A stretch of 53,515 bases of DNA, the filler included, from Jimgerdemannia flammicorona (lineage: Eukaryota), in the NCBI GenBank assembly GCA_003990765.1. It is 2 parts of 2 records of this genome, joined end to end, with 100 filler letters (N's around TTAATTAATTAA, not from the genome) between each part and the next. Parts side by side here need not be neighbours in the genome. Positions count along the whole stretch, not along the records: positions 26,809 to 53,515 come from RBNJ01000703.1; 1 more part is not named here. One strand, 5' to 3'. The number at the start of each line of letters is the position of its first letter. The first letter of the stretch is position 1. Under the pieces are notes generated by a model, which was not told the DNA's origin, made no database searches, and was given only the letters and a program-made list of their open reading frames with translations. The translations under genes and the position numbers were made by a program. Positions 1,326 through 46,229 of this stretch are shown here, in pieces.

Positions 1326-1330
1326 CTGGG

Positions 1331-11600: not shown

Positions 11601-12374
11601 ACTGTTAGGTGGTGCTCCTTTAGTTGAGTTCGACATTAGTGAGAGAATAGAATGCCAAAGGGGACCAGGCCAGGATCTGTGGCCTAGCAGTTGGCAAGGA
11701 GTTGGAATTGGCAAGGAGTGGAACTAGCGTAGTGTTTGGACCTGGAGTGCTGCAGTGAGAGCATGGCTGCCACCAAAGTACTGGGTGGTCTGGTGGCACA
11801 TGCTGTGGAGGAATGTTATGCTCAATTTTCACTTGGGGCACCTGGTTGTAGGGAGCTGCTTCGACTGTGAGAAGTGCCATAATGTAGGGCAGGAGGGGGG
11901 TTATGTACAGACGCCAGAACATTGGCTAAGAGAGTGTGAGGTGTTGGGGGAATTTTGGCGGACAATTGGGGATCGCTTAGGGGTATGGGGTAGGAGTGAT
12001 GGGGTACAGGGGCGATGGGAGGACTTGTGGGTTAGATTGGTAGGGGGAATAGGGATGAAGTGGCTCACTTTAGGTTGGGCTTTGGCAATTTGGGTGGGGT
12101 TGGCCAGTCATTGGCTATTTGTTTTTGAGGATGGGAGAAGGCAGAGCTTGGAGGACTGGCTGCTGTGATGGCATAGGCTTATGGAAGATACCTTAACAGG
12201 CTGGTGGCTGGGTTGGGGGATGCAGAGTAGTTGGAGGCACCACTTGGTAGAGGAAATCTGTGGGCAAAGTGGGGGGAGAGTGGGGGTTGTTGGTGAAAGG
12301 GTGATTTTCATTCGTGAGGAGGTAGGGAGGGGCCCCCTGGTGGGGATTGGATAGTTGGTTGGATTGATGTATAA
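8698..12374 (+). pseudogene. LINE copy 1 ORF2 (APE endonuclease, reverse transcriptase, C-terminal CCHC), disrupted
   Basis: APE motifs SLNMNGL, LLQD, GGDFN and SDH. RT motifs APGED, WRPIML, FLDQEKAYD, GVPQGDPLSP and AFADD. C-terminal CEKC...EHWLREC. Many TGG/CAG-derived stops. End coordinate approximate. Confidence 0.92.
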
Positions 12375-17845: not shown

Positions 17846-17869
17846 CTTGAAGCAGAATTGAATTATAAA

Positions 17870-17881
17870 CTGCTGCTACCA
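17870..17881 (-). other. Primer-binding site, probably initiator tRNA-Met
   Basis: TGGTAGCAGCAG lies 3 nt inside the 5' LTR. TGGTAGC is complementary to the GCUACCA-3' end typical of tRNA-iMet. Confidence 0.75.
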
Positions 17882-17884
17882 AGT

Positions 17885-19944
17885 TGTAAGAGGGTTGCTT
17901 TTTAGGGTAACCATTATGTAGTTCTGGAAGGATTTTCTGGGAGTTCTGGATATTCTGGAAGACCGTTTTCTTGTAGCCAAGATCAATTTCATATGGAGTA
18001 CATCCTCTATGCTTATTGATTTCAAGATCAGGTTGACATCTCAACCAAAGTCCTTTTTTGGACTAGTTCTGAATGTTCGGAATTTTCTATATTTCAGGAA
18101 GTTCAAGAAACTAAGACCAGCTTAGTTGAATTGGTGTATCGCTGCAGACAATACCCAATTAGGAAATTTCATGATGGGGTTAGAAGTGGGACCTAACAGA
18201 GAGTGGATTTACTTAAGAGTGATTTGTGGGTTATTAAATAGGTTTATTCGCTATTCATGATATTGCTATACTAGGAGTAGTTGTGTGAAGAGATATTGTA
18301 GGAAGTGTTCAGGAATATTCTTGTATATTCAAGTCTGAGATTCTGAGGTCTGGGGGAGGGGGTATTTATACTAGTGAGGGGCTATCTGGACTATGCTAGA
18401 TGTGGATGTAGCACTAAGTGCTTTGCTGAGTCAGAATACAGTTACATAGTACAAGTGTGATCTAATATGTCAAGAGATTGTCTGGCTGCTAAGTTAGTTT
18501 ACAGTTACATCAAATAAGGCTAATCTAACTATACTGTGACTGCTAGGCTATTTATGGGTTTAGGCACTGTCTGGGTAGTCCTTGATGACATCACCATCAA
18601 TTGCATCATCTCTGATGAAGTAGTCATCTAGGAAGAGTGGTTTGTGGATTACTTCTCCTTGTTTGCTGAGGTAATAATACATTGGAACTTTGTCTCTATT
18701 CCACAAGGTGGCATCATCTGTCTCATATGCTGGATAAGGTGTTGGTGGGCGAAGGAGAGGTGCATTGTCTTTACTTTCATTGGATTCGCTGTCTGCATAC
18801 CTTCTGTAGGTTACAGCACTATGAGTCACAGGGTTGTAGTAAGCTGGTGGCTATGGTTCATGTTGCTTGTACTCGGGTGGTAGAGTGGTTGGTTTGATCT
18901 CGAGGGTTGTCTGAAGGTACAGATTGTGTTCTCTGGTCTCTTCATTATAGTTAAAGTAATCAGGGGTAAATGCAGGTTAGTATTCGTGCCAGTGGTCATT
19001 GTCCCAATAAGTCTCATATGCTGTTATGAATTGTTGTAAATTTATCAGCAAGGTTGGCGGTGTGATCAGGGTTGGCAGAGATCCTTGGCTAGAGGTCATA
19101 TCAGTGTCAGAGGGATCATTGTCTTCTGCTTCGTCTTCATCGAAGTGGATTATATTGTAGATGTCCTTCATGGTATATCCAACTTGGGGCATTTGCAGGA
19201 TATGATCATTGGGGTGTAGAAAGGTTCTGTCTGTGGTTTTGACATACTCGAGGTACTTGTGGTTGAGTTCTTGTATTATGTCATCAATTTGGCCATAGAA
19301 CAGAGTAGTGACCATTTCACTGGTAGTAACTCAGAGGCAAGGAATAATGGTACTATACTTATAGAAGAGTTCTCGATGTTTGTGGGTGATGAGTTCTGGT
19401 GTTGGGACATCTGAATAATGTCTGTATCATAGTGGTGCTCGATCATATCTTCCAAGAGGCAGCCAATCTGATAGTAGCTTGAGATTTGTCCAATTCGGTG
19501 AGCCTTGCTAAGCATGTTCAGAGCATTCCATCGGGCTTCCACGAAGTAGAGGGGTACTAGGCTATGGATATTCATGAGGGGTAGAGGGGGTGTGGCTCCA
19601 TTGACAATGGCATTCCAAATGTCAGCATGGATACAGGTATAGATCTCAGTAGTCATGTTTGTGTGTTTTGGAAGTTGTGGTTACTGTTTGTTTTGGTTCT
19701 CTGATTCAATGTATCTTGGTGCTCAGTATATATGCATTTGATCCTGATTGATAAGATTCCATTTATATAAATCTTGTGTTCTGTGACTTCATATTGACTC
19801 AGCTTTGTGTACTGTGACTTCAGTTTGACTCAGCTTCATGATCAAGCAGGTGATTTCCAGATTGTTCAGAGGTTGTATGTGATTTCAGTGGCTTGTTCAG
19901 AGGGTGACATGTAATTTCAGTGACTTGGAGGTTGTGCACTTACA
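17885..19944 (-). repeat. 5' LTR of inner family-A element (2060 bp)
   Basis: TGTAAG...CTTACA termini. Direct repeat of 3576-5637, with differences overwhelmingly transitions. Confidence 0.95.
18560..19656 (-). pseudogene. Second copy of the LTR-encoded accessory ORF
   Basis: MTTEIYTCIHADIWNAIVNG...DYPDSA*. One 1-nt deletion near 19394; its stops are mostly at different codons from the 3' LTR copy. Confidence 0.8.
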
Positions 19945-20176
19945 GAAGTATAAGCAGTTTGTCTGATCCAATGATGGTAATTTCAGTTGTAGGAGCTTTC
20001 TTTCTATTGGTTCTTCTTTGAGCCAGTTCATTGACACAAGAGAAGCAATCATCAATCATTTGGGAAGAGTACATTCCAATGCCATGGGGGCATTGGCCAC
20101 TTGGTACATATCTATCTTTAATTTTCTTGTAGAATTGTTCTTCTTTATTCATGGTAGGTTGGACTGGGGCCTTGTT

Positions 20177-20584
20177 TGATGAGCCAAATCCTTTGGATCC
20201 TTAGATAGTAGGCAGTAGTTCAGAGACTTCCTTGACTATCAGAGTTGACTCAATTTTTTTGAATAGGATCTGAGCAATGCAGAAACCAATAGAGATCTTG
20301 AAGGATATCCAACTATGGTTTCAGATGAGGACAATAATTTCACCTGTGTAATCCTCATCAACGACTCCTCCTTCTACTGAGAGTTCTTTCAATGATAGGC
20401 TATTGTGACAATATATCCTTCCAACATATCCTTCAGAGATTTGGATACTGATTTCTGTATAGACTTGCTTAACTTCTTAGTTGGAAACTATAGCTTCTTC
20501 AGCTGCATATAGATCATATCTAGCTGCTTTTTAACTTCCTTTGGTTGGGGCCTTAGCAGTTTGTCTTAACTTGACAAAGTCCAG
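20177..20584 (-). pseudogene. dut: dUTPase domain of outer family-A copy
   Basis: Colinear with 15450-15857. Reads AARYDLYA, GGVVDEDYTGEI, CIAQ, GSKGFGSS. Confidence 0.9.
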
Positions 20585-22615
20585 TATTCTGGTAGTTAGG
20601 TTATTGAGATGGTGCAGAGTAGTAACAGTTGCTTGTATTGCTGTTCAGGGTTTTCAGTTGGGGCAGATACTGATCATATATCCTATCTTTTAGCAATAGA
20701 AGTATGCTCCACTTCTTTGAAGTTCATTCCTTTCTCTTTCAGTGAGTTTCTTAAAGATACTTGGCTGGGTGAATTTATGATTTCTGAGTGTCTATGAGGT
20801 GGATATTGAGGGAGCTTGGGATGCTTCATGCTTGGGTTCTTCTTTCTTGGTCTAAGTCTTTTCTTTGTTGTTAAATTGTCTTCAGGGCAGAATTGGTCCA
20901 GCTGTTAGGATTCACTTGACCATAGTCTTGATTCTTGTCAGGCACCATTGTTGGTGATCACAACTAACTAGGCAGCCTTGTTCTCAGATTTTTCTAGTAA
21001 GCCATTCAGGCAGTATGTTGAATAAATGGTCTGCTCTTGTACTATTTCATGCTTTGTCATTGGCAATATATCCTAGGCCAACAGTATTCAGGAGTGACTC
21101 AAGTTTTGTACAGAAAGTTTCAAATTCTTCCTTACTATATATGTATATCAAATTTAAGGTTATAGAGTTTTACTCAAGATTCAGCAATCATAGTTTTGCT
21201 ACAGTATTGAGCAATCATGAGTTGTTTCAGTCCAGGGGCTGCAGGATGGGCTCCATATTCTGGGGCATTATTTGCTATATTCTGAGTAACTACTACAGAT
21301 TGGGTGTCCCATATGAGGGGTTTTTCAGGAAGGGTTTGCCACCATTCTTCAGCAGGTCCTTGGAAGAATATAACAACTCAGCAAACATAGGCTATAGTTG
21401 TAGTGAAGAGTTATTCCAGAGTATGGTCTTGATTGTTTATCAGAAGGTAGTTAGCAACTCACTCATTTGTCTATTGATTGGCTTCAAAGTTGGTGTCAAC
21501 TATACTAATAAAGCTTTGGACTTCTTGTACAGTACTATTAAAGGTAGGTAGGCTCAGATTTTTGGTAGGTTGGGTCTGTTCAGCTAAGGTAGTAATGGTT
21601 GCTATCATTATTGCTACTTGGGCTGTGAGGTCTAGAATCTGTTGGTTCACCATGTTGTTTACTGGAGGTGGTTGGGCTACTGGTAGTAGTGTTACTGGTA
21701 CTATTTGAGATACTGGTGCAGCATGTGAGGGTATTCTTTGAGTCTGTATAAGTTACTGGAATAATAGTTGTGAGTCTGGAGTGAGGGCTCAATAGATAGC
21801 TGTTTGTTGCTGTATAGGTGTGTTCTGTCCTGATGGAGGTGTGTCTCCTTTGGTGGTGTATTCGGAATTGAATTCACTGAGATACTCCTCCTTCTCTTCA
21901 GTTTGGTCCTGGTATAGTTGGGTTTGCTCAGCATCAAAGTAGACAGAATCAGTTATATATCTGATTTCAGATAGACTTAATTCAAAGTCAAGTTCCAGTC
22001 TAGTGTTGGTTTCAGGTTCAGGTAGAGCTGTAGTAGAGCCTGCTTCTGGTTCAGGGTTAGGCTGTTGATGAAGAGTTTCTCTTGCTTCTTCCTTAAGAAT
22101 ATAGCAGGCCTTGCTGTTCTGAAAACAGTAGTATAATGTAGTCTTGGTCCTGGTATAGTGAAAATTAGTAGAGTTGAGCCACTTGGCTACAGAGGCTTGG
22201 ACTTCATGAGGAACTAAGGCTAGAAAGACTACTGATGGTTGTTCTAGGTTGCTTGGATTTGTGAAGCTGACAAAACTCTTGTTGAGAAGAGTAAAGAAGA
22301 CTTCTATAAGACCTTCTTTACCTTGACTTGCTGGGTATAGTGCAAGAAGTTCAGTGTATAGAGTTTCACCTATCTGCTGATTTAACTGGAGTATTTCTTT
22401 CTTTAAATGAAGTTTATCCCACTTGTTGTAGGTATGGAGGTCAAATTGTCCTTATGCATCAGGTTCAATTCTCTCTAGATTGTCAGATGGTTCAAGATAA
22501 ATTCCAGTTCAGAGGTTGGGCTTTATACCAACTTGTAGGAATTCTCAGAGGAGTTTGTAATAGGGTAAGAAAGCATCTTAAAGAGGAATTGGATTGTAAA
22601 CTACTACTACTAAGT

Positions 22616-24125
22616 TGTAAGAGGGTTGCTTTTTTAGAGTAACCATTACATAGTTCTGGAAGGATTTTCTGGAAGTTCTGGATATTCTGGAAGACTATTT
22701 TCTTAAGGTCAAGATCAATTTCATATGGAGTACATCCTCTATACTTATTGATTTCAAGATTGAATTGACATCTCAACCAAAGTCCTTTTTCTGGACTAGT
22801 TCTGAATGTTCAGAATTTTCCATATTTCAGGAAGTTTAAGAAACTAAGACCAGCTTAGTTGAATCAGCATATCACTGTAGACAATACCCAATTAGGAAAT
22901 TTCGTGATGGGGTTAGGAGTGGGACCTAATAGGGAGCAGATTTACTTAAGAGTGATTTATAGGTTATTAAATAGGTTTATTTGCTATTCATGATATTACT
23001 ATACTAGGAGTAGTTGTGTAAAGAGATATTGTGGGGAAGTGCTCAGGAGTTGTATTTGGATTGTTTAAGTGTTTAAGTCTGTTTTAAGTCTGAGATTCTG
23101 AGGTCTAGGGAAGGGAGTATTTATACTAGTGAGGAGCTATCTGGACTATACTGAATATGGGTGTAGTACTTAGTGCCTTACTGAGTCAGAATACAGTCAC
23201 ATAGTATAAGTGTGATCTGACATATCAAAGGATTATCTGACTGCTGAGTTAGTTCACAGTTACATCATATAAGGCTAATCTAACTATACTATAACTGCTA
23301 AGCTATCTATAGATTTAGACACTGTCTGGATAGTCTTTGATGACATCACCATTGATGACATCATTTTTGGCAAAGTCTGAGCAGTTTTCTGACTTCTGAC
23401 ATCATCAGTTTCAAAGATATCATCACTTCTATCTCTTGCAAGATTGAGGCTATCTTTGGTGGCAGTGGTTGCATAAGGATAACAGGTCTTGATTCTCTTT
23501 TTTGTTGGACTTCTGGTACATTTGCGAGGACTGGTCATTCTTGTCTAGGGTGAGGGCTCTCAATGTCATGGCTGGGGTTTCAAACCTCTCAGAAATGATA
23601 TTTTCTGTAATCTGAGACAATTTCTAGTAGTAATATCTATCATATAGATGGCTTGAGATTGGTTTCAACAATGTTGGCTTTCTCGAGTTCAGATGAAGCA
23701 TCCATCACTTTCCAACAGAGGTGATACAGATAGAGCAAACAGAGTTATTCAAATGTATTTTACTTCTACTAAGTAATGAGGTCTTTGTATAGTTGTGATG
23801 TATCTTGGTCTTGAGTTAATAAGTATAGGTTATGAACCTTTGATCGATGAGATAGAGTTCTTCTTATCTCAGTTTGAGTTTGGTACTTTCAGTTTCCTTT
23901 TATCATAGTACAGTATATCAAACTAGTTATAGAGATTCAGAGTCAGTCCTGTGGTTGTAGTACTTTTTCTGATATTCTTGTGTCTTGGTGGTAGATTCTT
24001 GTACTTGCTGGCATATTTTATATAACCAGATGATCTCTTCAGTAACTTGTAGTCTTGCATGTGGTTTCCAAATTGGTTCTGAGGATGATATGTGATTTTG
24101 ATGGCTTGGAGGTTGTACACTTATA
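22616..24125 (-). repeat. 5' LTR of outer family-A element (1510 bp) with decayed coding-like U3 cassette
   Basis: Direct repeat of 1331-2844. Adjacent PBS decayed to TAGTAGTAGTAG (22601-22612). Followed by the TSD CTGGG. Confidence 0.92.
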
Positions 24126-28833: not shown

Positions 28834-29706
28834 ATAGCCATCATTTTGTCCAGTCAACACAGTCAAACACCGTTAAAGTAATTCAGCCGGATGTTATTTT
28901 CCAAATGGCTATCACACTCCGTCCACTCATCTGCCGAGGGTTTCAAGAACGCGCCTGGACTTGTGCCGTTTCTGATGGAGGCGAACATCCATGAAATCGG
29001 GACATGACTAGACGCCACAGGGCTTGTCGACTACCGCCGGTATACCCTACTTCGGGAAGTCAACTGCGGCCGAGTGCAATGTGCGAAACGTGAACCCAAT
29101 TCAGCAGCTGAGTCCGACGTCATCGGGTTTGGGGTGCAAATGTTATTAAAAATCGGAGCATACAAACAGATGCAAATAATTACCGCTTCACGGAGCGTCA
29201 ACATATACCCCATTAGAACGGTAATCCGCCAGTGTTGGAATTCTCTATCTGTATAACTGCGAAGTTATCATTGAAGACATCGGACGGGGAGGCTGCCATT
29301 GATGAACATACAGGATGAGCAGTAAATTAAGAGATCTCAAGCCAAAATCGGAAATACAGACAGAGGACTGGTTCGATAGGAGCTTTGTGGGAGGTCATTG
29401 AACACTCGGTGCTCATCCCAACTCACCATTGTTAAGATGCCTATCCCGGCGGAGAGGAATTAGATGTTTCATTTATTTCTACTACAGCTATACTGCCTCT
29501 TCTGGTGTTGTCGAGTGCTTTTTGTAATATGGCTTTGGAGCCTTACAATGCAGACGAAACCGGCTCATCCGAAAATGTTGGTCTTCAAATTTAGATAGAT
29601 TACGTCAAATTATCACACTCTTTCTGTTCATTTAAAGGAAATGTATAGTTTCGTCTTTTAATCTTGGAGAGGCACAGATAAGTCGGTACAATTTATATGA
29701 AACCCT

Positions 29707-32700
29707 TTAAGACCTCCATAAGGGTCGGCCAGGCTCCCTTTTGAAAGATCCCCTTCTAGCTAGTCCCGGGTGACTGGTCGGGGGTATACTGAGCAGAGGG
29801 TCTTTAGCTATCTTCAAACTTTCGTCCCTGTCAGAGCGGAGATTTCAAGTTTAGCAGGACAACAAGACAGCCAATGAAGAAAAAATTTTCTATATAAAAA
29901 CATCAAAGTAAACTTGCCTGATTTTATTTGTCGTTAAAGTAATCGAAGTAGCTATTGGATATTGTGTGGAAGGACCTGATTGATTTTCTTCTTCGATGCA
30001 ATCGGACTCGGATATGCCTTCTTGCTGTTCTTTGATCTGTGTTTCTACAACTTCACGATTATTGATGTCTGTAACATGTCAGGTTGAGCAGAAGGCGAAA
30101 GACTTGAAGATGTCAGTTAAAACCGAGAGAATACATAAATATAATGAGTTTTATTCCATCACACATATAAAACTGATAATTACACCCGGTTACAACATAC
30201 CATTAGCATTAAAATTTTCTATGTTTCGTTTCAGACCCACACGGAGGATGTCTACGATATCATTATCGATGTTATCTTCTAAAAATGAAGAGAGAGTTAG
30301 GTGAGAAAGATCTGGACTATGACATAAAACCCATCAAGTTACTACAAAAACCAAATTCCACGGTTGTAATATACCAGTAATAACAAGCTCTTTCAGGGTC
30401 ATATTTAGCATCAGAGTTTTGCTCAATGCAAGTGCTCCCTTATTACTAATGTTGGTGTCTAATGATGAATAAGAGATGGATAAGCAAACATACTTAGGTT
30501 ATGGGCTACAACCCTCACATATTGCATATCAGTTTTAATATACTTTTGAGATTCAGCGTAATCAGGGTCGTGTTTGAGTTCAGAGATTTGGCCAGAGAGA
30601 CTACACCTCGATCACCGATATTGTTGTCTTAAGATGATTAGGAGATGAATGAGTCAAAAACACGATGTTAGCTAGATTTCATCAGCGAGCCAAACAACAT
30701 TTCTCACAGTTCCAACATACAATTGAGATTCAGCCTAAACAAGGTCTTATTTTGCTTTAGAGATTCGGCCAAGGCACATGCTCCCTCGGCTTCAATGTTA
30801 TTGGCTAAAGATGAACAGGGAAGAGATAATCGAGAAAAGCAGGTTGTGAGACAGAACCTACGAACAGCTGCAAGTTACATTCATACAGTTCAAACTTACA
30901 TTCAAGAATAAGCATGGTCAGGGACACATTTTTCTTCAAAGACTCGGCCATTTCACGTACCCCCTTAAAGCCGATGTTGTTGGCTGAAGATAAACAAAAG
31001 GCGGATGATATTCATTTCATGAGCTAAAACTCGTCACACAATTACATGTAAAAATTCACCCGGTTCTAACATACAATTGAGTTTCAGTATGGTCAGGGTC
31101 GTGCTTGACTTCAGAGATTTGGCCAGAGCCCCTACACCCTGATCACCGATATTATTGCCTAAAGAGGAATAGGTTATAAATGAGCCAAAAACATAATGTT
31201 AGCTGAATCTCATCAGGGAGCTAAAAACAACAGTTCTTATAGTTTTAACTTACAACTGAGATTTAGAATAGACAAGGTCGTGTTTTGCTTCAGACATTCG
31301 GCCAGTACACGTGCTCCCTCGGCACCAATGTTATTGGCTGAAGATGAATAGAAAAGAGATAACTGAGATAAGCAGATTGTGAAATGAAGTATATAAAACA
31401 GCTGCGAAAACAATTTATAAAATTCAAACTTACATTCAAGAATAAGTATGGTCAGGGTCATATTCTCCTTCAGAGACTCAGCCACTTCACTTGCTCCTTT
31501 AACACCAATGTTGTTGCCTGAAGATAAATAGGAGACAGTTGAATAAAATGCAAAAATTGTTTACAGGATTTCATCACGTAATTTCAACATACCAGTGAGT
31601 CCCAATGTCGTTAGGGTCCTGTTACGCTTCAGCGATACAGCCAGTGCGCTTGCTCCCTTGGCACCGATCTTGCTGGCTGAAAAAGAACAGGGAATTGTAA
31701 ATAAAATACAAGATGTGGTAACCTAGAGCTCAACATGCAGTTGATACGGCTTTAATGTACAATTGAGATTTAGTGTGATAAAACCCGTATTCAGTTTCAG
31801 GAATTCGGCAAGTATGCATGCTCCATATACATCAACATCTTGGGCTGAGGATAAACAGGAGATAGTGGATCAAACAGCTACAGTTTGCAGACAGGAATAC
31901 ATCACACAGCAGCAACAATAGTGCACATACCTTTGTATTTCTGCGTGGTCTGGATCGTGCTGTTCTTGAGGGATTTGATCAATGCACATGTTTTTTCGTT
32001 ACGACCTCTTTTATCTAAACATAAAGTGAGGCTGACAATTAGTTATATTTTTGAATAAACTATATTACAAAACAACTGAATAAAGGTTCCAATTGATAAA
32101 CCTTTGAATCTCATTTTAAAATATAACTTTAACTTTACCAAATAAATCAAAAGGAAAGCCCATAACTCGTCCTTATGATGCTAACAGCACGTACCTGCAT
32201 ATTCATCGAGCCACAAATCAAAATTTGGCGTTTGGGGGGTGTTGGCGGCCGAGCTTTCTGGCCTTTCGGGAATGTTGGCAGTTAACGCTTTCTGTTGTGG
32301 GGAGGTTGTTTGGGTGGTGCTGGCGATCAACGGTTCCGTCTGCGGAGAGGGCGTTTGGGGTGTGTTTACATTCACCGCTTCCGGCTGTGGGGGGGGCGTT
32401 TGGGGGTTGTTGTCGGTTGACTCTTCCGGTTGCGGGGGGGTGCTGGCGATCGTCCCTTCCGTCTGCTGAAAGGACATTTGGACTTTTGGGATATGTTGGC
32501 GTTCCAGCGAGGAGAGTTGCTGACGAGGTCGTAGCGGAAATAAGGGCTCTTCGCTATGGGAAGACAAGAGGCAATGCTGGGTTGATGAACAAGCAAAACA
32601 GAGTCAAAGAGACAGACTGCGTCAGTGCCATATGCCCGCTGTATATTAGGGATCGCTCCTGAAAATAAAATAAAAAATGTGTGTTTGCAAAGGATGATAT

Positions 32701-33885
32701 GACCTACTTTAAGCAGTTCATTGGCGGAAGCACGCTGGTAACAATCCGGTTCCAAACATCGATCAACGAAGTCCACCAGCCGGGTATCCATATTCTGGGG
32801 ATAATGTGGCCGACCTTGTTCAATGATCGTTCGCTTTAGCTAAATTTGGAGTGGCCGAAAATCAGTACGATTTATTAATGGGCAGAATAAATAATGGAAT
32901 TGAATGCATTCAGTGACAAGCCTCATATTTCGACAAATGATAGTTTAAAACAAACCTCTCCCTTCTCTAGGTGATCGCCTTCGTAAGGCGCCTTGCCAAA
33001 GTTAATAATCTCGAGGACGACGATGCCTAGTGCCCAAATGTCGACCTTTTGGTTGATGGGGTTGCCTTTACAGATTTCGGGCGCCCAAAACAATATGTCG
33101 CCAACCTCTTCGGATGACGGTTTCTCGATAATCGTGGGTTTCAAAGAGCTGAAGCCGAAGTCACCTGAATGAGGAATATAGTAAGTGGGGTTAGGTGTAA
33201 GAGGAAAAGCAAGAATTATGTTTAGAATGGTTACCAGGCTTGTCAGGGTGAAATAAATGGGCGAGGTATTTACCGATCACGATGGTGTTATCTTCACCAA
33301 GGAAGACATTTTCGCATTTGATGTTACGATGGATCCAGCCGCGCTTATGTATTTCCGCAAGGCCTGCCACGAGCTGAGGTATTTGTGTGGGCCGGATGGT
33401 AAGAATGATGGACAAGACAAAATTATTTCGGGTACACACACAATGTCACACAACACCAACTGGTCGTTGCATGGAATACAAGGCATTAGACGGACCCTTT
33501 TAAGTATGAACACCATTTGCAGCAAAGCGACGCTGTTGTCGAGGCAATACTTTTGCAAAGTCCCGCCGTTGTAATACGGTGTCACGAGGAAGACGCAGCC
33601 TTCGTAAATGTAGATACTCTGCAGTTTCAGAATATTTGGGTGTGGGTGTTTGGTCATAGTGATGATTTCACTTTCGATGAGCTTCTCGTCCTTGCTCCCC
33701 TCGATGTACTTTTTCACGGCCACGTTCTGGGGCGCGCCGTCGGACTCGCGGCAATGAAACACGCCACCGTGCGCGGAAGGCCATGTGGGCTTTTCGCTAA
33801 GGCCGCTATAAATGAGCTGCGGGTTAGAGAAGTGTTTGGGCACGCCTTCAAACTTGCGTAAAGATAACTTTAGAAGCGTGGTCAT
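29707..33885 (-). CDS. STE20/PAK-like (pseudo)kinase fused via a Pro/Thr-rich linker to RI-like leucine-rich repeats; 18 exons, ~800 aa
   Basis: Exons 33885-33496, 33373-33274, 33164-32956, 32839-32708, 32576-32195, 32014-31931, 31844-31761, 31676-31593, 31517-31434, 31337-31254, 31158-31075, 30983-30900, 30804-30721, 30627-30544, 30458-30375, 30278-30201, 30068-29918, 29827-29707 sum to 2403 nt with consistent phases and no internal stop. Kinase motifs VAVKK, HPNIL, IHRNIKCEN, GDFG, FWAPE and DIWALG. LRR consensus NNIGxxGAxxLAxxLKxNxTLxxLxL. The last intron needs a GC donor; otherwise the stop is at 29890. Confidence 0.88.
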
Positions 33886-34495
33886 AGTGCTTTATGAAAT
33901 TCTCGGACGGAAAGCAACAGAGGTCACATGCTTTTGAATTTGCCCTTATATAATTACAGTGTGCCAATCAAAAATCTCATGGTACCACTCTCGACGTCGG
34001 TTATAGAGTAGCTCCACGTGCCGTGACTGAAGTAGGAATAGCAATAGGTATTACGGGTCAAACCTGTGTAACCTTGCATAAATACAATTTGCCAAATACA
34101 TCGTTGTTCCTCTTCCGCTTCGCTGCAATCCTGCAACTAGCGACTTCATCCCGTTTTCGCACCCTCCCACCTCCCTGTTTACTGTATTCTACCTGTCGGG
34201 TTCGCTTATGCCGAACTGACCATTCGCCACGCAATGTCGATATTCCGACTTGCTGCGATATTCCCCAAAATAAATCAAAACATGTATACAATGTAGTTGC
34301 GAGGGACACGAGAGTTGATAGACATTATATGGGGCGCAATTTTTCAAAAGGTGCCTTATGGCCTATCAGGATTAGTGCCTTTTTGAAAAATTGTGTCCCA
34401 TATAGTCACCACTCGCCTGTTCACACAAAAGTCGGCCTACCTCTCCCCCTCTTTGCGCTTCACCCTCGGCTTCGGCTCCAACGCCCCAAACTGCT

Positions 34496-34561
34496 GGGAA
34501 CCCCGGAGTTTGTTTGACGGCCACAAGCGGGAACCTCGGAGTTTGTTTGACTGTCACAAGC
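34496..34561. repeat. 33-bp tandem duplication
   Basis: GGGAACCCCGGAGTTTGTTTGACGGCCACAAGC followed by GGGAACCTCGGAGTTTGTTTGACTGTCACAAGC (3 mismatches). Confidence 0.9.
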
Positions 34562-40399: not shown

Positions 40400-43300
40400 T
40401 AGTACTAACAATATAATGTCACTCTCTCCCTCAACCAATGCCCCCTGGGCCCAGACCTCTCCCTTCGATCTCCCCCTGCCCAAGCACCACCTGATCACCC
40501 ACAACCCGAATTCTTCCACCACTCTTCAGGGAGGTACTCTGCACCAACCCCCTATGACTCCCTCCACCCAGCCCCCAACCCCACCACCAGCTATTCAAAA
40601 TGTCCAAAAGCAACCATTCCCAACATGCCATCTTTTCCCCAGCCCCAACCTGACGCCCTTCCTCAAAAACATGAACCCAATATCCCGCCAACCCGACCCA
40701 CATAGCCAAAGCCCACCCAAGGATCAGCTACTCGTCTCCAACTCCACCCACCAGTCGCTGGCTGAGCTCTCCCCATCTCCCCCCTCCCTCTCCCTCCAGA
40801 GCACTCAGCCCCACTCAGTTCCCAATACCACTCCAGAACTCTTCCAAAACCTCACATTCACCAAGCCAATGTTCAGGCATTTGTACCACGCCTCCCTCCT
40901 GGCCAACATTGCAACACTCCTCGCACTCAAATACTCCACCGTCCACCAAGTGCCCAGACCAATAGGTCAACATCACATTCCGCCATAGGACACGCCACCA
41001 TACCACCCAGAACTTGGGGGGCAGCCACTGCCTCACCCTTTTGCTCCAGAGCCAGAGACCATTCCAGTTCCACTCCTCACCAATTCCAACCCTCTGCCAG
41101 GCTTCAGGCCACAGGTCTCCCCCTAGGCCTCGCAGATACTCCAGACCCTCGCCGAGTTGAAAGTCCTCCACCAGAACACCACCCAATAGCAACCTGTCCC
41201 ACTGCCACATCCGCAGTCCCCAATCCTCCTCAGCTTCATCACCATGCCATCGAAGTCCAATCTTCTTAGCACTATCCACCACCCCCCACCAGAAGCCCAT
41301 AAACCATATCCTCCTGCTCCCTGCCATGGCCACCATTGCGAGCAGGTCACCCGAGTCACCATGTGGGGAATACTGAACCTCCTACAATTGCTGCATGAGT
41401 GGCACCCACTCCCGACCTCAAAGCTCACTCGCCCTCCTCAACCACCAAGCTCAAAGGCATAGGAGCCACTTAGTAAAGTCCACTAAGCCCAGCCCACCTC
41501 TTTCCAAGGGCAGTGTGAGCACCTCCCAACCGACCTGGCTCTGCCTCCCTCTCCAGATCCATGACCTCACTATCTTCAACAGCCCCTTGACCACCCAAGT
41601 TGGGAAGTCCAAATGATAACCCACGTACCATAGCTTTGGCATCCAATACACATTCAGTACCATCACCCTTCCAGCTAGAGACATATGCCAGCCTCCCCAA
41701 CGCAGCAGAACATTTCCCCACTCCAATAGTTGACAATCCCACCATGCCTGGGGAAGAAGAGAGCCAAACACTGAAAAGTAGATCCCCAAATATCACACCA
41801 GTTCTCCAGCAGGTACCACTGTCCCAATGATCTCACCACCAACAATTCCATCACCTAGCACCAGAGTCTCACACTTGTGCTAGTTCAGCTTGGCACCAGA
41901 GCCCCTCTCATATCATTCCACAGAACCCTGTAACTCCCCTACATCCACCAGGGAGCCCAGCCTGACCACCATGTCATCAGCGAAGGCCCCCACCTTCCAA
42001 TTCACCCCTAAAATGTCCAAACCCTCAATTTGGCGCCGAATCCTGTCCAGTAGAGGCTCCAGAGAAAGGGCATACAATATGGGCGACAGTGGGTCCCCTT
42101 GGGGCACTCCACGGCCCAGGGGAAAAGTCACCCCCCTGTGACCATTAATAACCAACGCCACCTGACTGTCCTCCAAGAGACTGATCAAAGAACCTCGGAA
42201 CCCTGGGGGGATACCAATCCGTTTCAGCACCCCCTCCAGCCATATCCTCTGCACTTTATCATAAGCCTACTCCTGGTCCAGAAACACCAGATGTCCATCA
42301 ACCCCTGCTGCCCAGGCACCTTCAATTACTCCATGAACCCAAGCCGTCCAATCTTGAATCAACCGACCACCAACAAACCCACGCTGCTCCACACCAAGCA
42401 CCTGTTGAGCAATTCCTTGCAGCCTCCTCACCAAGATCTTGGTCACCAATTTGCGGTCCATGTCGAGAAGCATAATAGGCCACCAGTTCTTCCAGTCCTC
42501 TTGCCTCTCCTTGTTCTTGTAGAGCAAGGAGACTAGCCCTAAGCACTGTCCCCCAATCTAGGCACCAGACCGAAGAACTTCATCACACATAGCAGTCATC
42601 TCCTCTAGCGCCTCATCAACTCCAGCCATTTTCTGCCAAAAATCCCAGGGAAGCCCATCCTCTCCTGGGGCAGTCCCTTTACTCATTGAGACCATAACTC
42701 TGCGAATTTCCTCACCACACACTGGGTCCCCTAATGTCCCAAGCCCCATTGCAGGGTCTGGGTGCCAATCCCCCAGCTGCCTCTCAATGTCCAGAGCATC
42801 CATTCCTCCTTCCTCCTCACTCCACAAATTCTCCCACCAGTCCCTCAATAGGCCCAGAATTGCCGGCAACCCCACCACCAGCTCGCCGTTCGTATCCAGA
42901 ACCCCTTCCCACCACTGCCTCATTCCTCGTGCTTGTAACATCCTCAATAAAAACCTAGTAGGCCTCTCCTCTTCCTCCAGCCCCTGCCACCGCAAGCAGG
43001 CCACCATCCCCTGCAGCTTCACCTCCTCCTCTTTTCGTAACACTCCTGTAAGCTCTTCGACCTCCCGTCGGATTCTCACAATACGCCAATCAGTCACGTC
43101 CCCATCTTCCAGCACACCTGCCCATCTCCCCAAGAGAGCTGCCAGACGCCATGAGGCCCACAGCACCCTCTGCCTTTGCTGGGTACCCTTCCCTTTCCCT
43201 GCTTCCCTCCAATACCTCTGGGCAGTTGCCTTCAGTCTTCTCCAACAGTCTCCGATCCCCAGGCCCTGTTCCCACCACCTACAGATCTTCCCAACCATCT

Positions 43301-44093
43301 CCATCTCCCAACCCTCCCACACCACCCTATCCTCCAACAAGGAAGAATTTAGCCGCCAATGTCCAGGCCCATTCTCATTTCCCCCAAACCTCCCCCCTCC
43401 AAGCAGCCCCCAGTGATCAGACCATGGACACCATACCACTTCCAGCACTGACCAGACATCTGCTCCCCAACACTCCGCTGTCAGAACCCAGTCAATCCTG
43501 AAGCCCAGTCCTGCTGCCCAGTGGGTGTACACCCGCCGATCGGCCCGGAGGTGTCTTCCTGAGTCCACTAAAGAACACAATCTCTCTATTTCCAGCCATT
43601 CACCCAGCCCACCACTTTCACCCTGCACACCTCTCCCGCCATCTGTTCTATCCACCTCCTTATCCCGTACCATGTTGAAGTCCCCCCCCATACAATCCAG
43701 GCCAACCTCTCCTAATACACCAGCCTCTTTCAAATGGCAAATCCAATCCACCCTCTCTCCTCTTTCAGCTGGGCAATAATAAGACCCAACTGTCAACGAG
43801 CCCCATCCAGGCCTCTTCCATATACCCCACACCACCCGAGACCCCCAATGTCCAATGTCCACAATATCCCCCATCTCTTTCCGAACAAGAATACACACTT
43901 TCCCCCTCCATACTGCCACATTCCCCCATTCCTTCGTCCAATCCTGTAGGTCCACATCTTCCTCATATCGAACATCCTGTAGCAAGAAGAGGTCCACGTC
44001 CAATCCCTTAAGCCATCCAAATATTTACTTCCTTCTAGCTGCCCCCCGTAACCCATTAATGTTCAATGAGAATATCTTAGTTGTACTGTTCAT
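40400..44093 (-). pseudogene. LINE copy 2 ORF2 (APE-RT-CCHC), disrupted by stops
   Basis: MNSTTKIFSLNINGLRG, LLQD, GGDFN, RIDW, SDH, APGEDG, FLDQE, GVPQGDPLSP, AFADD, CEECC...EHWLGEC. End approximate. Confidence 0.92.
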
Positions 44094-44124
44094 ATTGAAA
44101 GAATGTTGATTTGGCGACCCCAAC

Positions 44125-46047
44125 CTAATATTCCATGCTCATCTCATCCCCAGCCAGATCCAAGTGCCATTCAGCTTCCAAGTCACCCTCCACAATAGCC
44201 TGAGCATCCAATGCCTCCAAGATTTCCTGACATTCCACCCCATCCACGACCTCCATATCTGATTGGTAGTCCAAGCAGACTGTGTGCCACTTCTCCAGTC
44301 CCTTCCTCGAGTTCCACAAGAAAAGTGCCCTATTACTTGTAATCTTCCGAAGCTCCTCCTCCTGCTGATCATCCACTTGATATTCAACTGACTCCAGGAG
44401 GACAGCCAGGATCTCATTCCTCATCTTCCTCGGCACTTCCTCCCCTCGAAGAATCTCCTCCCAATGCCTCTCTTCCATCACCCGGAAGTCCTCACCCCCC
44501 AGCTCTTCAGCCGCGACCCCTTCCAAGGTCTTCCACATCCACTTCTCCTCATCCACTGCCTCCGCCGCACTCTGAGCAATTTGTCCCCCATCTACCTTGG
44601 GGTCCATCAGCGTGCTCCTCCTCACTGACTCATCCCACTCCTCATCCGGCACATTCAGCAGCTCCTCCTCCCCCTCGGCCCCGCCCGGGACACTATACTG
44701 AGGGTGTACACCCTCCCCCATTTCGGCATCTGCCTCCAACTTGCCTTCCTTCTCTTCCCCCACTCCAATCTGTGCCCCACCCTGGGCCATTCCTCCCCCC
44801 TCAGCCCAGGCACTCTCCTGCAACCCCACAGCTACCTCCTCTGAGCTCCCACCAGCCCTATCCCCACCCAACCTCGCCAGCAGCTCCTTCTGAATTTTCC
44901 TCCCCTGCATCTTCTCCCAAGCCCCCTTCTCCATCCAGACCCTCTTTCTATTCACCTCCCCTACCACTGTCCTGGCCTCAAACTCCTTCCAGGCCAATCT
45001 CCTCCTTGCAACTGCCCCTTCCAGGTCCTCCAGCGCCTCCAACAGGTCCTCCTCCTCCTCCTGAGTCCCCTTCACCCTTGCGACCTTACACTCCACTGGT
45101 CCCCACCTCAGTGTCGCTGGCCAGTCCCTCAACTTTCCCGTATTCTCCTTCCAAAACAGTCTCACCCTGACATCGATGTCACCAGTCCTCAGCATCGTGC
45201 CCTCCCAGACCTTGAACCCAACGTCCACAATCTCTCCAAATTCCTTGATCGCCTCCACAACCAGCTCTCTGGTCCTCTCCTTTGCCACAGTCAGGAGATC
45301 CAACACCGTCAACTGTACCACCCGGGGGTCCCAGTGCATGCACCGGGCCATAGGGACCACAACCCTACCAACCATCACCCCCTTCTCCATGGCTGCCAAC
45401 AGGGTGTCTTCCTCCTCAAACCCTACCTCAACCCCCTCCTTTTCCTTCAAAAACTTCACTGACACTGCTTCCTTAGCCTCCTGCGCCACCAACCCCAAAA
45501 TCATCCTTGCCGTCACCGCCAAGCTCCGGAAGCACATAGTGACCGTGAATTCTGACCTCGACTTCTTGAGTAACGGGGCCGACACCATGCCTATCACACC
45601 ATCTGCTAAATCCCCGGGCCTCGTGCCTGCTCCCAGTCCCGAATTGCCAACCGCCATCACATCTGGATTTTTTGCCAGATCCCCAGTAACAGCCCCATCA
45701 GCAGTCACAGTACCATCTCCAGCCCCTACTCCAGCTCCTACCCTACCACTAGAGGCTCCCCTGGGCACACCTCCCTGTCCCCCAGCAGCTACTGTCAACA
45801 CCTTCCCCAAGTCTAGCCAACCATCTAGCCCAGAAGCCATCTGCCCCATTCTGACCTTATCTGCAAAGGTCGACCTCTCTCCTCCTCTCTGCCTCAGACC
45901 ACCCCTTCCACCACTGCCAGTGCCTCTGCTTGTCATCGAGACCTCTGGCATCCCCAAACCATCACCCCTCCTCCCCACCTGCTGCCAGCCAAAGGCACTG
46001 TCACCCCCCTGGCCAGTACGCCCACCAGTTTGATCGTTGCTGTCCAT
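44125..46047 (-). CDS. LINE copy 2 ORF1, intact 640 aa (Gly-rich N-terminus, RRM-like core, acidic C-terminus)
   Basis: Uninterrupted ORF directly upstream of ORF2, homologous to 6639-8664. RRM assignment rests on pattern only (VEVGF, EFGEIVDV). Confidence 0.88.
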   Translation of the reverse strand: MDSNDQTGGRTGQGGDSAFGWQQVGRRGDGLGMPEVSMTSRGTGSGGRGGLRQRGGERSTFADKVRMGQMASGLDGWLDLGKVLTVAAGGQGGVPRGASSGRVGAGVGAGDGTVTADGAVTGDLAKNPDVMAVGNSGLGAGTRPGDLADGVIGMVSAPLLKKSRSEFTVTMCFRSLAVTARMILGLVAQEAKEAVSVKFLKEKEGVEVGFEEEDTLLAAMEKGVMVGRVVVPMARCMHWDPRVVQLTVLDLLTVAKERTRELVVEAIKEFGEIVDVGFKVWEGTMLRTGDIDVRVRLFWKENTGKLRDWPATLRWGPVECKVARVKGTQEEEEDLLEALEDLEGAVARRRLAWKEFEARTVVGEVNRKRVWMEKGAWEKMQGRKIQKELLARLGGDRAGGSSEEVAVGLQESAWAEGGGMAQGGAQIGVGEEKEGKLEADAEMGEGVHPQYSVPGGAEGEEELLNVPDEEWDESVRRSTLMDPKVDGGQIAQSAAEAVDEEKWMWKTLEGVAAEELGGEDFRVMEERHWEEILRGEEVPRKMRNEILAVLLESVEYQVDDQQEEELRKITSNRALFLWNSRKGLEKWHTVCLDYQSDMEVVDGVECQEILEALDAQAIVEGDLEAEWHLDLAGDEMSMEY

Positions 46048-46229
46048 GTTGCTAGTTGTCAGACACCAAAAACGTTGTAAAAAGTGTTGTCTGAGTCTTG
46101 TGTCACCCGAATGTTACTGGTGAAAGATGGCTGCTGCAAGACACATCTCTGATACTCTACTTGGTATACTTGCTGGGAGGCATTCTTCTTGAGATAGTTG
46201 ATCTGAAGGAGATATACTTCTTTCTTATC

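What the first reader, a model, noticed from the sequence alone, without database searches (positions are those of the whole stretch)
29707..33885. Kinase-LRR gene with NLR-like one-repeat-per-exon architecture: candidate immune or non-self sensor
Seen: an N-terminal STE20/PAK-like kinase fold, a Pro/Thr linker, then ten consecutive exons of exactly 84 bp (28 aa), all phase 1, each encoding one RI-type LRR (the first degenerate), plus a 78-bp degenerate one. No signal peptide or TM segment is evident. The gene sits on an intact island amid dense TEs. Established: 84-bp RI-type LRR exons are typical of animal NLRs such as NOD2 and NLRC3, whereas described fungal NLRs use WD40, TPR or ankyrin repeats rather than LRRs. 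Inference: a cytoplasmic LRR sensor coupled directly to a kinase-like signalling domain without a NACHT/NB-ARC switch, possibly part of a lineage-expanded family.
Basis: partly seen in the sequence, partly recalled or inferred. Interest (0 to 1): 0.8.

Follow-up and report, generated by a model that had tools for sequence, protein, structure and literature searches.

The report
Fungal kinase-like gene with LRR exons
A mycorrhizal fungus gene joins a probably inactive PAK-like kinase domain to a row of NOD2-style leucine-rich repeats, one per exon; public annotation misses this layout, a sensing role is untested, and the transcripts seen keep one intron that would cut the protein short.

Summary
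On the minus strand, 29707-33885, lies an 18-exon gene. Fully spliced it gives 800 aa: a PAK/STE20-like kinase domain, a 114-aa P/Q/T/S-rich linker, ten consecutive 84-bp phase-1 exons plus one of 78 bp that encode RI/NOD2-type LRRs, and a tail.

Spliced contigs in two public runs confirm 14 of 17 introns exactly. One contig links kinase exons to LRR exons.

The organism is Jimgerdemannia flammicorona. Its public model, 339 aa and partial, is wrong and lacks the LRRs.

The kinase belongs to a Mucoromycotina-wide family that expanded in this species. Here the catalytic HRD reads HRN, and four paralogues read GFG for DFG, so it is probably a pseudokinase.

The array grew by duplication of a three-exon block, introns included, with dN/dS 0.47.

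Caveats:
- Both runs' contigs retain the intron between LRR exons 2 and 3, which carries an in-frame TAG.
- One run shows a 2-nt deletion in LRR exon 2.
- Whether paralogues carry LRRs could not be tested.
- An immune-sensor role is speculation.

Verdict: a real, unannotated fusion architecture of moderate interest.

The parts
33496..33885 (-). Exon 1: start codon and kinase N-lobe (degenerate Gly loop, VAVKK lysine)
   Evidence: Model. Pfam PK_Tyr_Ser-Thr 33.7 bits against cut-off 23.1. 100% identical to the start of public protein P0001. Contig X1 record 4 covers 33496-33881.
33274..33373 (-). Exon 2: catalytic loop reading HRN instead of HRD
   Evidence: HRN is also present in P0130, a separately deposited near-identical protein of the same species. 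Joint 33373->33496 in both runs.
32956..33164 (-). Exon 3: DFG, activation segment, APE
   Evidence: Pfam Pkinase 40.1 bits against cut-off 31.7. Alignment.
32708..32839 (-). Exon 4: end of the kinase C-lobe
   Evidence: Pfam Pkinase profile positions 225-259, E 0.0083, below cut-off. Joints 32839->32956 and 32576->32708.
32195..32576 (-). Exon 5: P/Q/T/S-rich linker, ending in a motif shared with paralogues just before the LRR exons
   Evidence: No Pfam family. Composition. Paralogue models P0004 and P0005, and the public model P0001, stop at or just past this junction.
31931..32014 (-). LRR exon 1 of 11 (84 nt, phase 1), degenerate N-terminal unit
   Evidence: Joints 32014->32195 and 31844->31931 in both runs.
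31761..31844 (-). LRR exon 2 (84 nt, phase 1)
   Evidence: Run X2 shows a 2-nt deletion at 31816, in one contig at depth 6.6.
31677..31760 (-). Intron 7 (84 nt, GT-AG), retained in the spanning contigs of both runs. It carries an in-frame TAG at 31725-31723.
   Evidence: X1 record 2 lies unbroken on 31592-31844 and X2 record 6 on 31622-31844. The stop is read from the frame.
31593..31676 (-). LRR exon 3 (84 nt, phase 1)
   Evidence: LRR_6 half-match E 0.047.
31434..31517 (-). LRR exon 4 (84 nt, phase 1), first exon of duplicated block A
   Evidence: Joint 31516->31592, cut +1.
31254..31337 (-). LRR exon 5 (84 nt, phase 1), block A
   Evidence: LRR_6 E 0.0063. Several other contigs match this exon only in part and run on into other sequence that reads LRR-like by eye (table 7).
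31075..31158 (-). LRR exon 6 (84 nt, phase 1), block A
   Evidence: Joints at both sides.
30900..30983 (-). LRR exon 7 (84 nt, phase 1), block B, 81% identical in DNA to LRR exon 4
   Evidence: Joints.
30721..30804 (-). LRR exon 8 (84 nt, phase 1), block B, 82% identical to LRR exon 5
   Evidence: Joints.
30544..30627 (-). LRR exon 9 (84 nt, phase 1), block B, 81% identical to LRR exon 6
   Evidence: LRR_6 E 0.0022. Joints.
30375..30458 (-). LRR exon 10 (84 nt, phase 1)
   Evidence: Joints.
30201..30278 (-). LRR exon 11 (78 nt, phase 1), degenerate C-terminal unit
   Evidence: Joints 30278->30375 and 30068->30201.
29918..30068 (-). Exon 17: acidic, non-repeat tail
   Evidence: No Pfam family. 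X1 record 1 covers it.
29828..29917 (-). Last intron, 90 nt, GC-AG
   Evidence: Joint 29826->29917 with 4 nt of slack. Only a +1 shift gives GC..AG, read from the sequence.
29707..29827 (-). Exon 18: last coding exon, stop codon ends at 29707. The transcript contig runs on to 29651.
   Evidence: X1 record 1 covers 29651-29826.

Best explanation
This is a real, expressed, lineage-specific fusion gene of the Endogonales fungus Jimgerdemannia flammicorona. Fully spliced, it encodes a soluble 800-aa protein. Residues 1 to about 283 form a PAK/STE20-like kinase-like domain. Residues 291-404 are a disordered P/Q/T/S-rich linker. Residues 405-710 hold about nine good and two degenerate 28-residue RI/NOD2-type LRRs, followed by a 90-aa tail. 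The kinase domain descends from a kinase found across Mucoromycotina, whose older form carries a long disordered tail. In Jimgerdemannia that kinase multiplied, and in this copy the tail is replaced by an LRR array. The array is related (50% identity) to the LRR array of another protein of the same fungus, a MYND-LRR protein. It grew by tandem duplication of exon-plus-intron units. Most likely mechanism (inferred): the LRR horseshoe is a protein-binding module tethered by a flexible linker to a catalytically impaired kinase-like domain (HRN, degenerate Gly loop). That domain would act as scaffold, allosteric partner or decoy rather than as an efficient enzyme. Output may be gated at the RNA level, because the intron between LRR exons 2 and 3 is retained in the transcripts seen and would truncate the protein to kinase plus linker. 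Shown: gene structure, splicing, family relations, motif changes, exon-block duplication. Inferred: fold, pseudokinase status, binding role, regulation by intron retention.
For: Gene model: an open 2403-nt CDS over 18 exons with canonical splice sites. Fourteen of 17 introns match contig joints exactly in run X1, and 9 of them also in X2. X1 record 2 (1032 nt) joins exons 3, 4 and 5 to LRR exons 1-4. Record 1 (921 nt) joins LRR exon 5 through to the 3' end. Organism and annotation: exon 1 is 100% identical to a 339-aa partial J. flammicorona protein whose model reads through introns and stops at the exon-5 donor. Kinase: Pfam passes on exons 1 and 3. The best solved relatives of paralogue P0004 are PAK1 (E 2.6e-30) and then PAK4. 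The nearest relatives outside the species are Mucorales and Umbelopsis proteins, 47-50% identical, 660-790 aa, kinase plus tail without Pfam LRR. Tree: the window gene sits inside a clade of 8 J. flammicorona rows (support 100/99). That clade is sister to a long-tailed J. flammicorona plus Endogone pair, and all of these sit within Mucoromycotina. Motifs: the window and P0002 read HRN. P0002, P0003, P0004 and P0006 read GFG for DFG. All 11 Mucorales and Umbelopsis rows in that alignment keep HRD and DFG. HRN recurs in the separately deposited P0130. LRR: a profile of the 11 units hits NOD2 (5irm, E 2.1e-11) and LRRC34. The spliced LRR region is 50% identical over 232 ungapped residues (E 3e-54) to P0123, which scores 102.6 bits on Pfam LRR_6. 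Growth of the array: LRR exons 4-6 against 7-9 are 81, 82 and 81% identical, and the two introns inside the block are 72 and 77% identical. Constraint: dN/dS between the blocks is 0.47 (Fisher p 0.034). Of 19 coding differences seen in X2, 10 are synonymous.
Against: The only listed contigs that span intron 7 (31677-31760) retain it in both X1 and X2, and it carries an in-frame TAG. Those mRNAs would therefore give roughly 470 aa without the main LRR array. Contigs cannot show that a spliced form is absent. X2 also shows a 2-nt deletion inside LRR exon 2, in one contig at depth 6.6. Pfam LRR_6 does not reach its cut-off on any single exon (best 18.4 against 23.4 bits; 6 of 11 exons give half-matches), because exon borders split the Pfam unit. 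The window keeps DFG while its nearest paralogues have GFG, so residual activity cannot be excluded. No functional data exist.
Confidence: 0.7

Rival explanations
1. One reading: a cytoplasmic innate-immune or non-self sensor. The LRR array recognises a microbial or allogeneic ligand and signals directly through the attached kinase-like domain, without a NACHT/NB-ARC switch, as one member of an expanded receptor family.
For: The repeats are of the NOD2/RI type. The protein looks cytosolic. The kinase family is expanded in this species. The array changes by exon-block duplication. The differences between the duplicated blocks fall, by my reading of the alignment, 9 of 26 on the five beta-strand x positions, which make up 5 of 28 positions. 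Other contigs that partly match one LRR exon run on into sequence that reads LRR-like by eye (table 7), which hints at further LRR transcripts. The fungal adenylate cyclase LRR has been reported to sense bacterial muramyl dipeptides (passage of PMC2939053).
Against: Nothing tested bears on ligand, induction or cell death. dN/dS is 0.47, not above 1. RI-type LRRs are equally typical of non-immune proteins: ciliary LRRC34 and DRC5, RanGAP and ribonuclease inhibitor all match the sister array P0123. No paralogue is shown to carry LRRs. The kinase is probably inactive. The dominant contigs would not translate the array.
Confidence: 0.15
2. A young chimeric gene on its way to decay. The kinase-plus-linker part is the product, and the LRR exons are a recently captured or recently uncoupled 3' segment that is transcribed and spliced but no longer translated.
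For: Intron 7 with an in-frame stop is retained in both runs' spanning contigs. X2 has a 2-nt deletion in LRR exon 2. The catalytic Asp is lost. The setting is TE-rich. Constraint on the duplicated blocks is only moderate (dN/dS 0.47, p 0.034).
Against: About 340 codons downstream of intron 7, spread over 11 exons, remain open with every splice site intact and the LRR consensus kept. dN/dS is below 1. Of the 5 X2 differences in LRR exons, 3 are synonymous. Contigs drop minor isoforms, so a spliced form may exist.
Confidence: 0.2
3. Kinase and LRR array are two separate neighbouring genes, as the public annotation implies: a kinase-only partial model with no LRR.
For: The public model P0001 ends at the exon-5 donor and has no LRR.
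Against: One spliced contig joins exons 3-5 to LRR exons 1-4 across canonical in-frame junctions in X1, and the same junctions appear in X2. P0001 visibly reads through introns and aligns to my model at only 60% identity with 69 gap positions. No start codon or promoter-like gap separates the parts.
Confidence: 0.03

Closest known systems
Mucoromycotina PAK/STE20-like kinases with an N-terminal kinase and a long disordered tail (for example proteins named 'STE/STE20/PAKA protein kinase' in Mucor lusitanicus and 'PAK 3' in Apophysomyces; P0008-P0015, P0126-P0134, and the long-tailed J. flammicorona P0131)
   Same: The kinase domain is 47-50% identical and sits at the N-terminus. The unusual Gly-loop replacement and the motif after the kinase are shared. 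They fall in the same clade in the tree.
   Different: They keep HRD and DFG, carry S/T/P/K-rich tails of about 400-1000 aa, and have no LRR. No formal census was made.
LRR domains of animal NOD2 and NLRC-type NLRs and of ribonuclease inhibitor
   Same: 28-residue RI-type repeats. NOD2 is the best solved match to the repeat profile. One LRR per exon is described for fish NLRs and NLRC3 (passage of bioRxiv 10.1101/027151). That NOD2 and NLRC3 LRR exons are 84 bp is my recollection and was not checked.
   Different: There is no NACHT, CARD or PYD domain. A kinase-like domain is attached in cis and N-terminal. The exon structure here arose at least partly by recent duplication within the gene, so the likeness to animal NLR genes is probably convergent.
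ROCO/LRRK kinases (LRRK2 and Dictyostelium Roco proteins)
   Same: LRRs and a kinase domain sit on one cytosolic polypeptide.
   Different: By recollection, LRRK proteins have the LRR N-terminal to a Roc-COR GTPase and a TKL-type kinase. Here there is no Roc-COR, the kinase is PAK-like and N-terminal, and the LRRs are RI-type.
Plant and oomycete LRR receptor kinases
   Same: LRR plus kinase.
   Different: Those have extracellular LRRs, a transmembrane helix and a C-terminal kinase (passages of PMC2939053). Here there is no hydrophobic segment outside the kinase core and the order is reversed.
Fungal proteins with both LRR and kinase domains listed by Soanes and Talbot 2010 (four in Batrachochytrium dendrobatidis, five intron-less ascomycete genes of bacterial type)
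   Same: Fungal proteins that combine LRR and kinase without a transmembrane region (passage).
   Different: The ascomycete ones lack introns and resemble bacterial proteins. The identities of the chytrid ones sit in their Table S8, which I did not open, so LRR type and domain order cannot be compared. No Mucoromycotina example is mentioned in the passages read.
J. flammicorona MYND-finger plus LRR_6 protein (P0123)
   Same: The closest LRR array found: 50% identity over 232 ungapped residues, from the same species.
   Different: Its N-terminal partner is a zf-MYND domain, not a kinase.
HER3/ErbB3-type pseudokinases
   Same: The catalytic-loop Asp is replaced by Asn (HRN). This comparison is from my recollection of ErbB3, not from a call.
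   Different: An unrelated kinase group. ErbB3 is a receptor tyrosine kinase homologue.

Membership tests
Eukaryotic protein kinase superfamily (Pfam Pkinase / PK_Tyr_Ser-Thr) | Profile match above the curated cut-off | tested here: met
   Exon 1: PK_Tyr_Ser-Thr 33.7 bits against 23.1. Exon 3: Pkinase 40.1 against 31.7. The exons were scanned singly because the spliced protein could not be submitted.
Catalytically competent protein kinase | Gly-rich loop GxGxxG, VAIK Lys, alphaC Glu, HRD Asp, DFG Asp, APE | tested here: not met
   Alignment. Lys (VAVKK), Glu, DFG and APE are present. HRD reads HRN. The first two Gly of the loop are replaced, in the whole Mucoromycotina family too. Activity itself cannot be tested with these tools.
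PAK (p21-activated kinase) subfamily of STE20 | Kinase domain closest to PAKs | tested here: met
   Paralogue P0004 (55% identical to exon 1) has PAK1 as best solved relative at E 2.6e-30, then PAK4 at 3e-24. The window protein itself was not submitted whole.
PAK (p21-activated kinase) subfamily of STE20 | N-terminal CRIB/PBD domain (PF00786) with a C-terminal kinase | tested here: not met
   The kinase starts at residue 1. No PBD was found in any of the 28 family members scanned, whereas ordinary PAKs list PF00786.
RI-type LRR (Pfam LRR_6, PF13516) | Profile match above the curated cut-off | tested here: inconclusive
   Single exons: 6 of 11 give half-unit matches, E 0.0022-0.18, best 18.4 bits against cut-off 23.4. 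Exon borders split the Pfam unit, and the spliced array could not be submitted. Indirect support: 50% identity over 232 residues to P0123, which scores 102.6 bits.
RI-type LRR (Pfam LRR_6, PF13516) | 28-residue period with the NxIGxxGaxxLaxxLkxNxtLxxLxL consensus and likeness to solved RI-type arrays | tested here: met
   Alignment A1. The profile hits NOD2 5irm at E 2.1e-11 and LRRC34 at 2.8e-4.
NLR / STAND receptors | Central NACHT or NB-ARC nucleotide-binding domain | tested here: not met
   No such Pfam match on exons 1, 3, 4 or 5, the LRR exons, or exon 17. Kinase, linker and LRR account for residues 1-710, which leaves no room. Exons 2 and 18 were not scanned.
LRR receptor kinases (plant or oomycete type) | Signal peptide, extracellular N-terminal LRRs, a transmembrane helix, a C-terminal kinase | tested here: not met
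   The domain order is reversed. The only hydropathy peak (1.74) lies inside the kinase core. No dedicated signal-peptide or TM predictor was available.
ROCO / LRRK | Roc GTPase and COR domains between LRR and kinase | tested here: not met
   No Pfam match other than kinase and LRR, and the layout leaves no room.

The most novel reading that the evidence does not exclude
Jimgerdemannia has independently built a NOD-less intracellular LRR receptor class. In this reading, a family of PAK-derived pseudokinase-LRR proteins has arrays that expand by exon-block duplication and a full-length output gated by a detained intron. They would survey the cytoplasm for microbial or non-self ligands, for instance from the endobacteria reported in Mucoromycota or from plant partners. 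This would be a first LRR-based surveillance system in fungi, which are held to lack LRR pattern receptors.
Probability: 0.12. Interest if true: 0.8.

Novelty: new variant of a known kind. Interest (0 to 1): 0.45.

Why it matters
Comparative studies report no LRR-type pattern receptors and no LRR-bearing NLRs in fungi (passages of PMC2939053, PMC4986451 and PMC12258605). Here is a transcript-supported fungal gene that ties a NOD2-type LRR array to a signalling-type domain. The public protein model misses this architecture entirely, so domain censuses based on that model would not see it. It gives a concrete locus for asking two questions: whether early-diverging, plant-associated fungi use LRR modules for recognition, and how new multi-domain genes and repeat arrays arise in TE-rich genomes. 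The case also shows a kinase family sliding toward pseudokinases after duplication. If the LRR exons prove untranslated, it is instead a dated example of a failing gene fusion.

Tried and rejected
- Whole-genome paralogue census: no genome is held for this window. I could not test whether the loci of P0002-P0007, P0019 and P0020 carry LRR exons.
The model was rebuilt from coordinates alone.
- Pfam on LRR exons: the first try used the wrong frame and was corrected.
- The 27-column repeat alignment was too short for the search for homologous proteins. A 91-aa unbroken window translation (two LRR exons with an open intron between them) found only P0123.
- The look-up of sequencing runs: no RNA holder listed. 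The two runs laid are marked 'RNA?' as a guess. Their intron-less joints are what I use.
- Cover and depth: bins without cover (29400-29563, 32024-32187) are not used as evidence, except where a contig joins across them. Depth differences were not used to rank parts.
- A joint at 33054->33140 (GA..GT, side 26, X1) fits no canonical intron and was set aside as a likely chimera or paralogue.
- Tandem Repeats Finder saw no array, because the period exceeds its reach at this divergence.
- The search of earlier findings gave nothing in three look-ups.
- Paper searches for LRR_6 + Pkinase + fungi, Endogonales genome and kinase expansion, Mucoromycota + leucine-rich repeat + kinase domain and Jimgerdemannia turned up no description of this architecture among the titles and abstract starts listed. 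PMC8778642 has no mention of LRR or Jimgerdemannia.
- A RanGAP-like reading (LRR followed by an acidic stretch) was considered and dropped. RanGAP1 matches the sister array far more weakly (E 3.7e-15) than RI-like proteins and NOD2 do (E 8e-44 to 2e-33).
- Structure prediction and complex prediction were not run, because the spliced protein cannot be submitted.

Full report
**What is there.** The finding lies on the minus strand. I listed every AG|exon|GT candidate with an open phase-1 frame and then fixed a coordinate model.
- Exons 1-4 (390, 100, 209 and 132 nt) encode a kinase domain.
- Exon 5 (382 nt) encodes a linker.
- Ten consecutive exons of exactly 84 nt and one of 78 nt follow, all entered in phase 1.
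- Two tail exons close the gene.
- Sixteen introns are GT-AG (75-180 nt). The last (29917-29828) is GC-AG.
- The spliced CDS is 2403 nt and gives 800 aa.
- The repeat finder detected the LRR periodicity independently (families D5 and D10). tblastn of the model found no second copy in the window.

**Transcript evidence.** One search found two public runs of one coded organism, from two samples and two studies, that hold parts of the stretch. The tool only guesses that they are RNA. Laid on 29400-34300, their contigs skip 14 of my 17 introns at exactly the predicted borders (CT..AC on the plus strand). Nine of those joints also appear in the second run (table 5).
- X1 record 2 (1032 nt) runs from exon 3 through exons 4 and 5 into LRR exons 1-4.
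- X1 record 1 (921 nt) runs from LRR exon 5 to 29651, past the stop. Its 11-letter loose end matches the end of LRR exon 4.
- So kinase and LRR exons lie on one spliced transcript.
- Introns 2 and 9 are not among the 15 joints shown (7 more were not listed). Contig lengths and that loose end are consistent with their removal.

**The exception matters.** Both X1 record 2 (31592-31844, unbroken) and X2 record 6 (31622-31844) retain intron 7, at 31677-31760. In the coding frame that intron carries a TAG at 31725-31723 (frame read). X2 also lacks 2 nt at 31816 inside LRR exon 2, in one contig at depth 6.6.
- The mRNAs represented by these contigs would yield roughly 470 aa: kinase, linker and two poor LRR units.
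- Contigs drop minor variants, so a spliced form is not excluded.
- All LRR exons are phase 1, so skipping LRR exon 2 would also keep the frame.
- Record arithmetic in X2 further suggests an in-frame 168-nt shorter linker. This is my inference, table 8.

**Organism and annotation.** Exon 1 is 100% identical to 'hypothetical protein BC938DRAFT_482202, partial' of Jimgerdemannia flammicorona, 339 aa. That model reads through introns, omits the DFG exon and ends at the exon-5 donor. It aligns to my model at 60% identity with 69 gap positions. No public protein found here has the kinase-LRR layout.

**The kinase part.**
- Pfam kinase profiles pass their cut-offs on exons 1 and 3.
- Paralogue P0004 has PAK1 as its best solved relative (E 2.6e-30).
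- Outside the species, the nearest proteins are from Mucorales and Umbelopsis. They are 47-50% identical and 660-790 aa, with kinase at the N-terminus, then tails without Pfam domains.
- A full HMMER scan of 1.84 billion representatives with paralogue P0003 found further members with names only from Endogonales, Umbelopsidales and Mucorales, among the 10 looked up. A few cluster members carried no name.
- None of the 17 further family members scanned has an LRR.
- A local profile of the window's repeats matched none of the 275 kinase relatives held at E below 0.1. The positive control P0123 matched at 1e-65.

**Family tree.** The tree had 24 rows. I left out P0001, P0005, P0124, P0130 and P0152 as bad models, fragments or near-duplicates. 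The window gene sits inside a clade of 8 J. flammicorona rows (support 100/99). That clade is sister to a long-tailed J. flammicorona protein plus an Endogone fragment. Twelve named J. flammicorona proteins of the family were seen. Two locus-tag series occur, so some may be alleles, and I estimate 7-9 loci.

**Catalytic motifs.**
- The whole family lacks the first two glycines of the Gly-rich loop.
- The window gene and P0002 read HRN for HRD.
- P0002, P0003, P0004 and P0006 read GFG for DFG. P0007 and all 11 Mucorales and Umbelopsis rows in the alignment are intact.
- Three models lack the DFG exon.
- HRN recurs in the separately deposited P0130, so it is not an assembly slip.
- The window domain is therefore probably a pseudokinase or a very weak enzyme.

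**The LRR part.**
- The eleven units align to NNIGxxGAxxLAxSLKxNxTLxxLxLx. The first and last are degenerate.
- Scanned singly, 6 of 11 give LRR_6 half-matches below the cut-off, because the exon border falls inside the Pfam unit.
- A profile of the units hits NOD2 (5irm/5irl, E 2e-11 to 4e-11) and LRRC34.
- The only long public protein sharing words with two of the exons is P0123, a J. flammicorona zf-MYND plus LRR_6 protein. The spliced array is 50% identical to it over 232 ungapped residues.
- P0123's solved relatives include NOD2, ribonuclease inhibitor and NLRPs. They also include ciliary LRR proteins and RanGAP, so the repeat type does not by itself imply immunity.
- The ESM Atlas look-up listed an 'RNI family' cluster that is mostly Mucoromycota.

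**How the array grew.** LRR exons 4-6 and 7-9 form two copies of a roughly 530-nt block. The exons are 81, 82 and 81% identical. The introns inside the block are 72 and 77% identical, against about 40-62% for other intron pairs.
- Between the blocks, dS is 0.35, dN is 0.17 and dN/dS is 0.47. Fisher's test gives p = 0.034.
- That indicates moderate purifying selection, not diversifying selection.
- By my reading of the alignment, 9 of 26 residue differences fall on the five beta-strand x positions.
- Of 19 coding differences in X2, 10 are synonymous.

**Surroundings.** An RVT_1 ORF lies at 10234-11052. A GC-rich block with strong GC skew spans 6.6-12 kb, and an inverted relative spans 40.4-46 kb. 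Nine dispersed repeat families lie at 1.3-23.4 kb. The 'island amid TEs' description is reasonable, but I checked it only in part.

**Interpretation.** The best-supported reading is a lineage-specific fusion.
- A duplicated PAK-like kinase lost its disordered tail to an RI-type LRR array of a kind present elsewhere in this genome.
- The kinase then lost its catalytic Asp.
- The array expanded by unequal duplication of exon-intron units.
- I infer that the LRR horseshoe binds a partner, and that the tethered kinase-like domain acts as scaffold, allosteric partner or decoy.
- Intron-7 retention may gate production of the full-length protein.
- The immune-sensor idea remains possible but untested.
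- The rival that the LRR exons are no longer translated is kept at 0.2. About 340 codons in 11 exons stay open with intact splice sites and dN/dS below 1, which argues against it.

**Comparison with what is known.**
- Passages of Soanes and Talbot 2010 (PMC2939053) report no LRR receptor kinases and no NB-ARC plus LRR proteins in fungi. They do report a few LRR-plus-kinase proteins, four in a chytrid and five bacterial-like ones in ascomycetes. Their Table S8 was not opened.
- Dyrka et al. 2014 (PMC4986451, passages) and the 2025 Sordariales study (PMC12258605, passages) find no LRRs in fungal NLRs.
- The gene is not an NLR, an LRR-RLK or a ROCO protein. Each lacks a defining feature here.
- My paper searches found no description of this architecture among the listings seen. 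This is no proof that none exists.

**Limits.**
- The spliced protein could not be sent to Pfam, homology, structure or complex tools.
- No genome was available for a paralogue census.

Noticed in passing
window 6600-12000 (+) and 40400-46050 (-): Two GC-rich blocks (52-58% GC against 33-43% around them) have strong GC skew of opposite sign. One holds an RVT_1 reverse-transcriptase ORF (10234-11052). The other holds ORFs of 640 and 481 aa without Pfam matches. Arms 7409-7656 and 45015-45262 are 71% complementary. They are probably two diverged copies of one retroelement in opposite orientation, flanking the gene at about 20 kb and 7 kb.
   Followed up: partly
window 1328-5386 and 14659-23355: Nine direct-repeat families (86-92% identity between the best copies) recur at spacings of about 2.2, 4.7 and 14.3 kb. 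This suggests tandem or nested copies of another repeat element. ORFs at 14310-14933 and 21015-21551 have no Pfam match.
   Followed up: partly
window 32227-32394: In run X2, the pieces of contig record 6 imply an in-frame 168-nt (56-codon) shorter P/Q/T-rich linker than in the window. This is inferred from record coordinates only and may be a length polymorphism of the repetitive linker.
   Followed up: no
window 31254-31337: Several contigs in both runs match this one LRR exon at 90% or more and then run into other sequence that reads LRR-like by eye (loose ends at 31271, 31276 and 31317). This hints at expressed paralogous RI-type LRR genes. Their N-terminal domains are unknown.
   Followed up: no
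window 33992-34300: Contigs lie just upstream of the gene's start on the plus strand (for example 34031-34300, with 12 differences and one gap). They overlap an ORF at 34023-34517 that has no Pfam match. This is probably repeat-derived or neighbouring transcription.
   Followed up: no
P0131 (J. flammicorona, 1353 aa): The long-tailed, ancestral-type member of the kinase family carries a run of near-identical repeats of about 15 residues (a KKFDGRAST-like motif) in its tail.
   Followed up: no
window 33054-33140: One X1 contig shows a non-canonical 85-nt skip inside kinase exon 3 (GA..GT, only 26 letters on the short side). It is probably a chimera or a paralogue and was not pursued.
   Followed up: no
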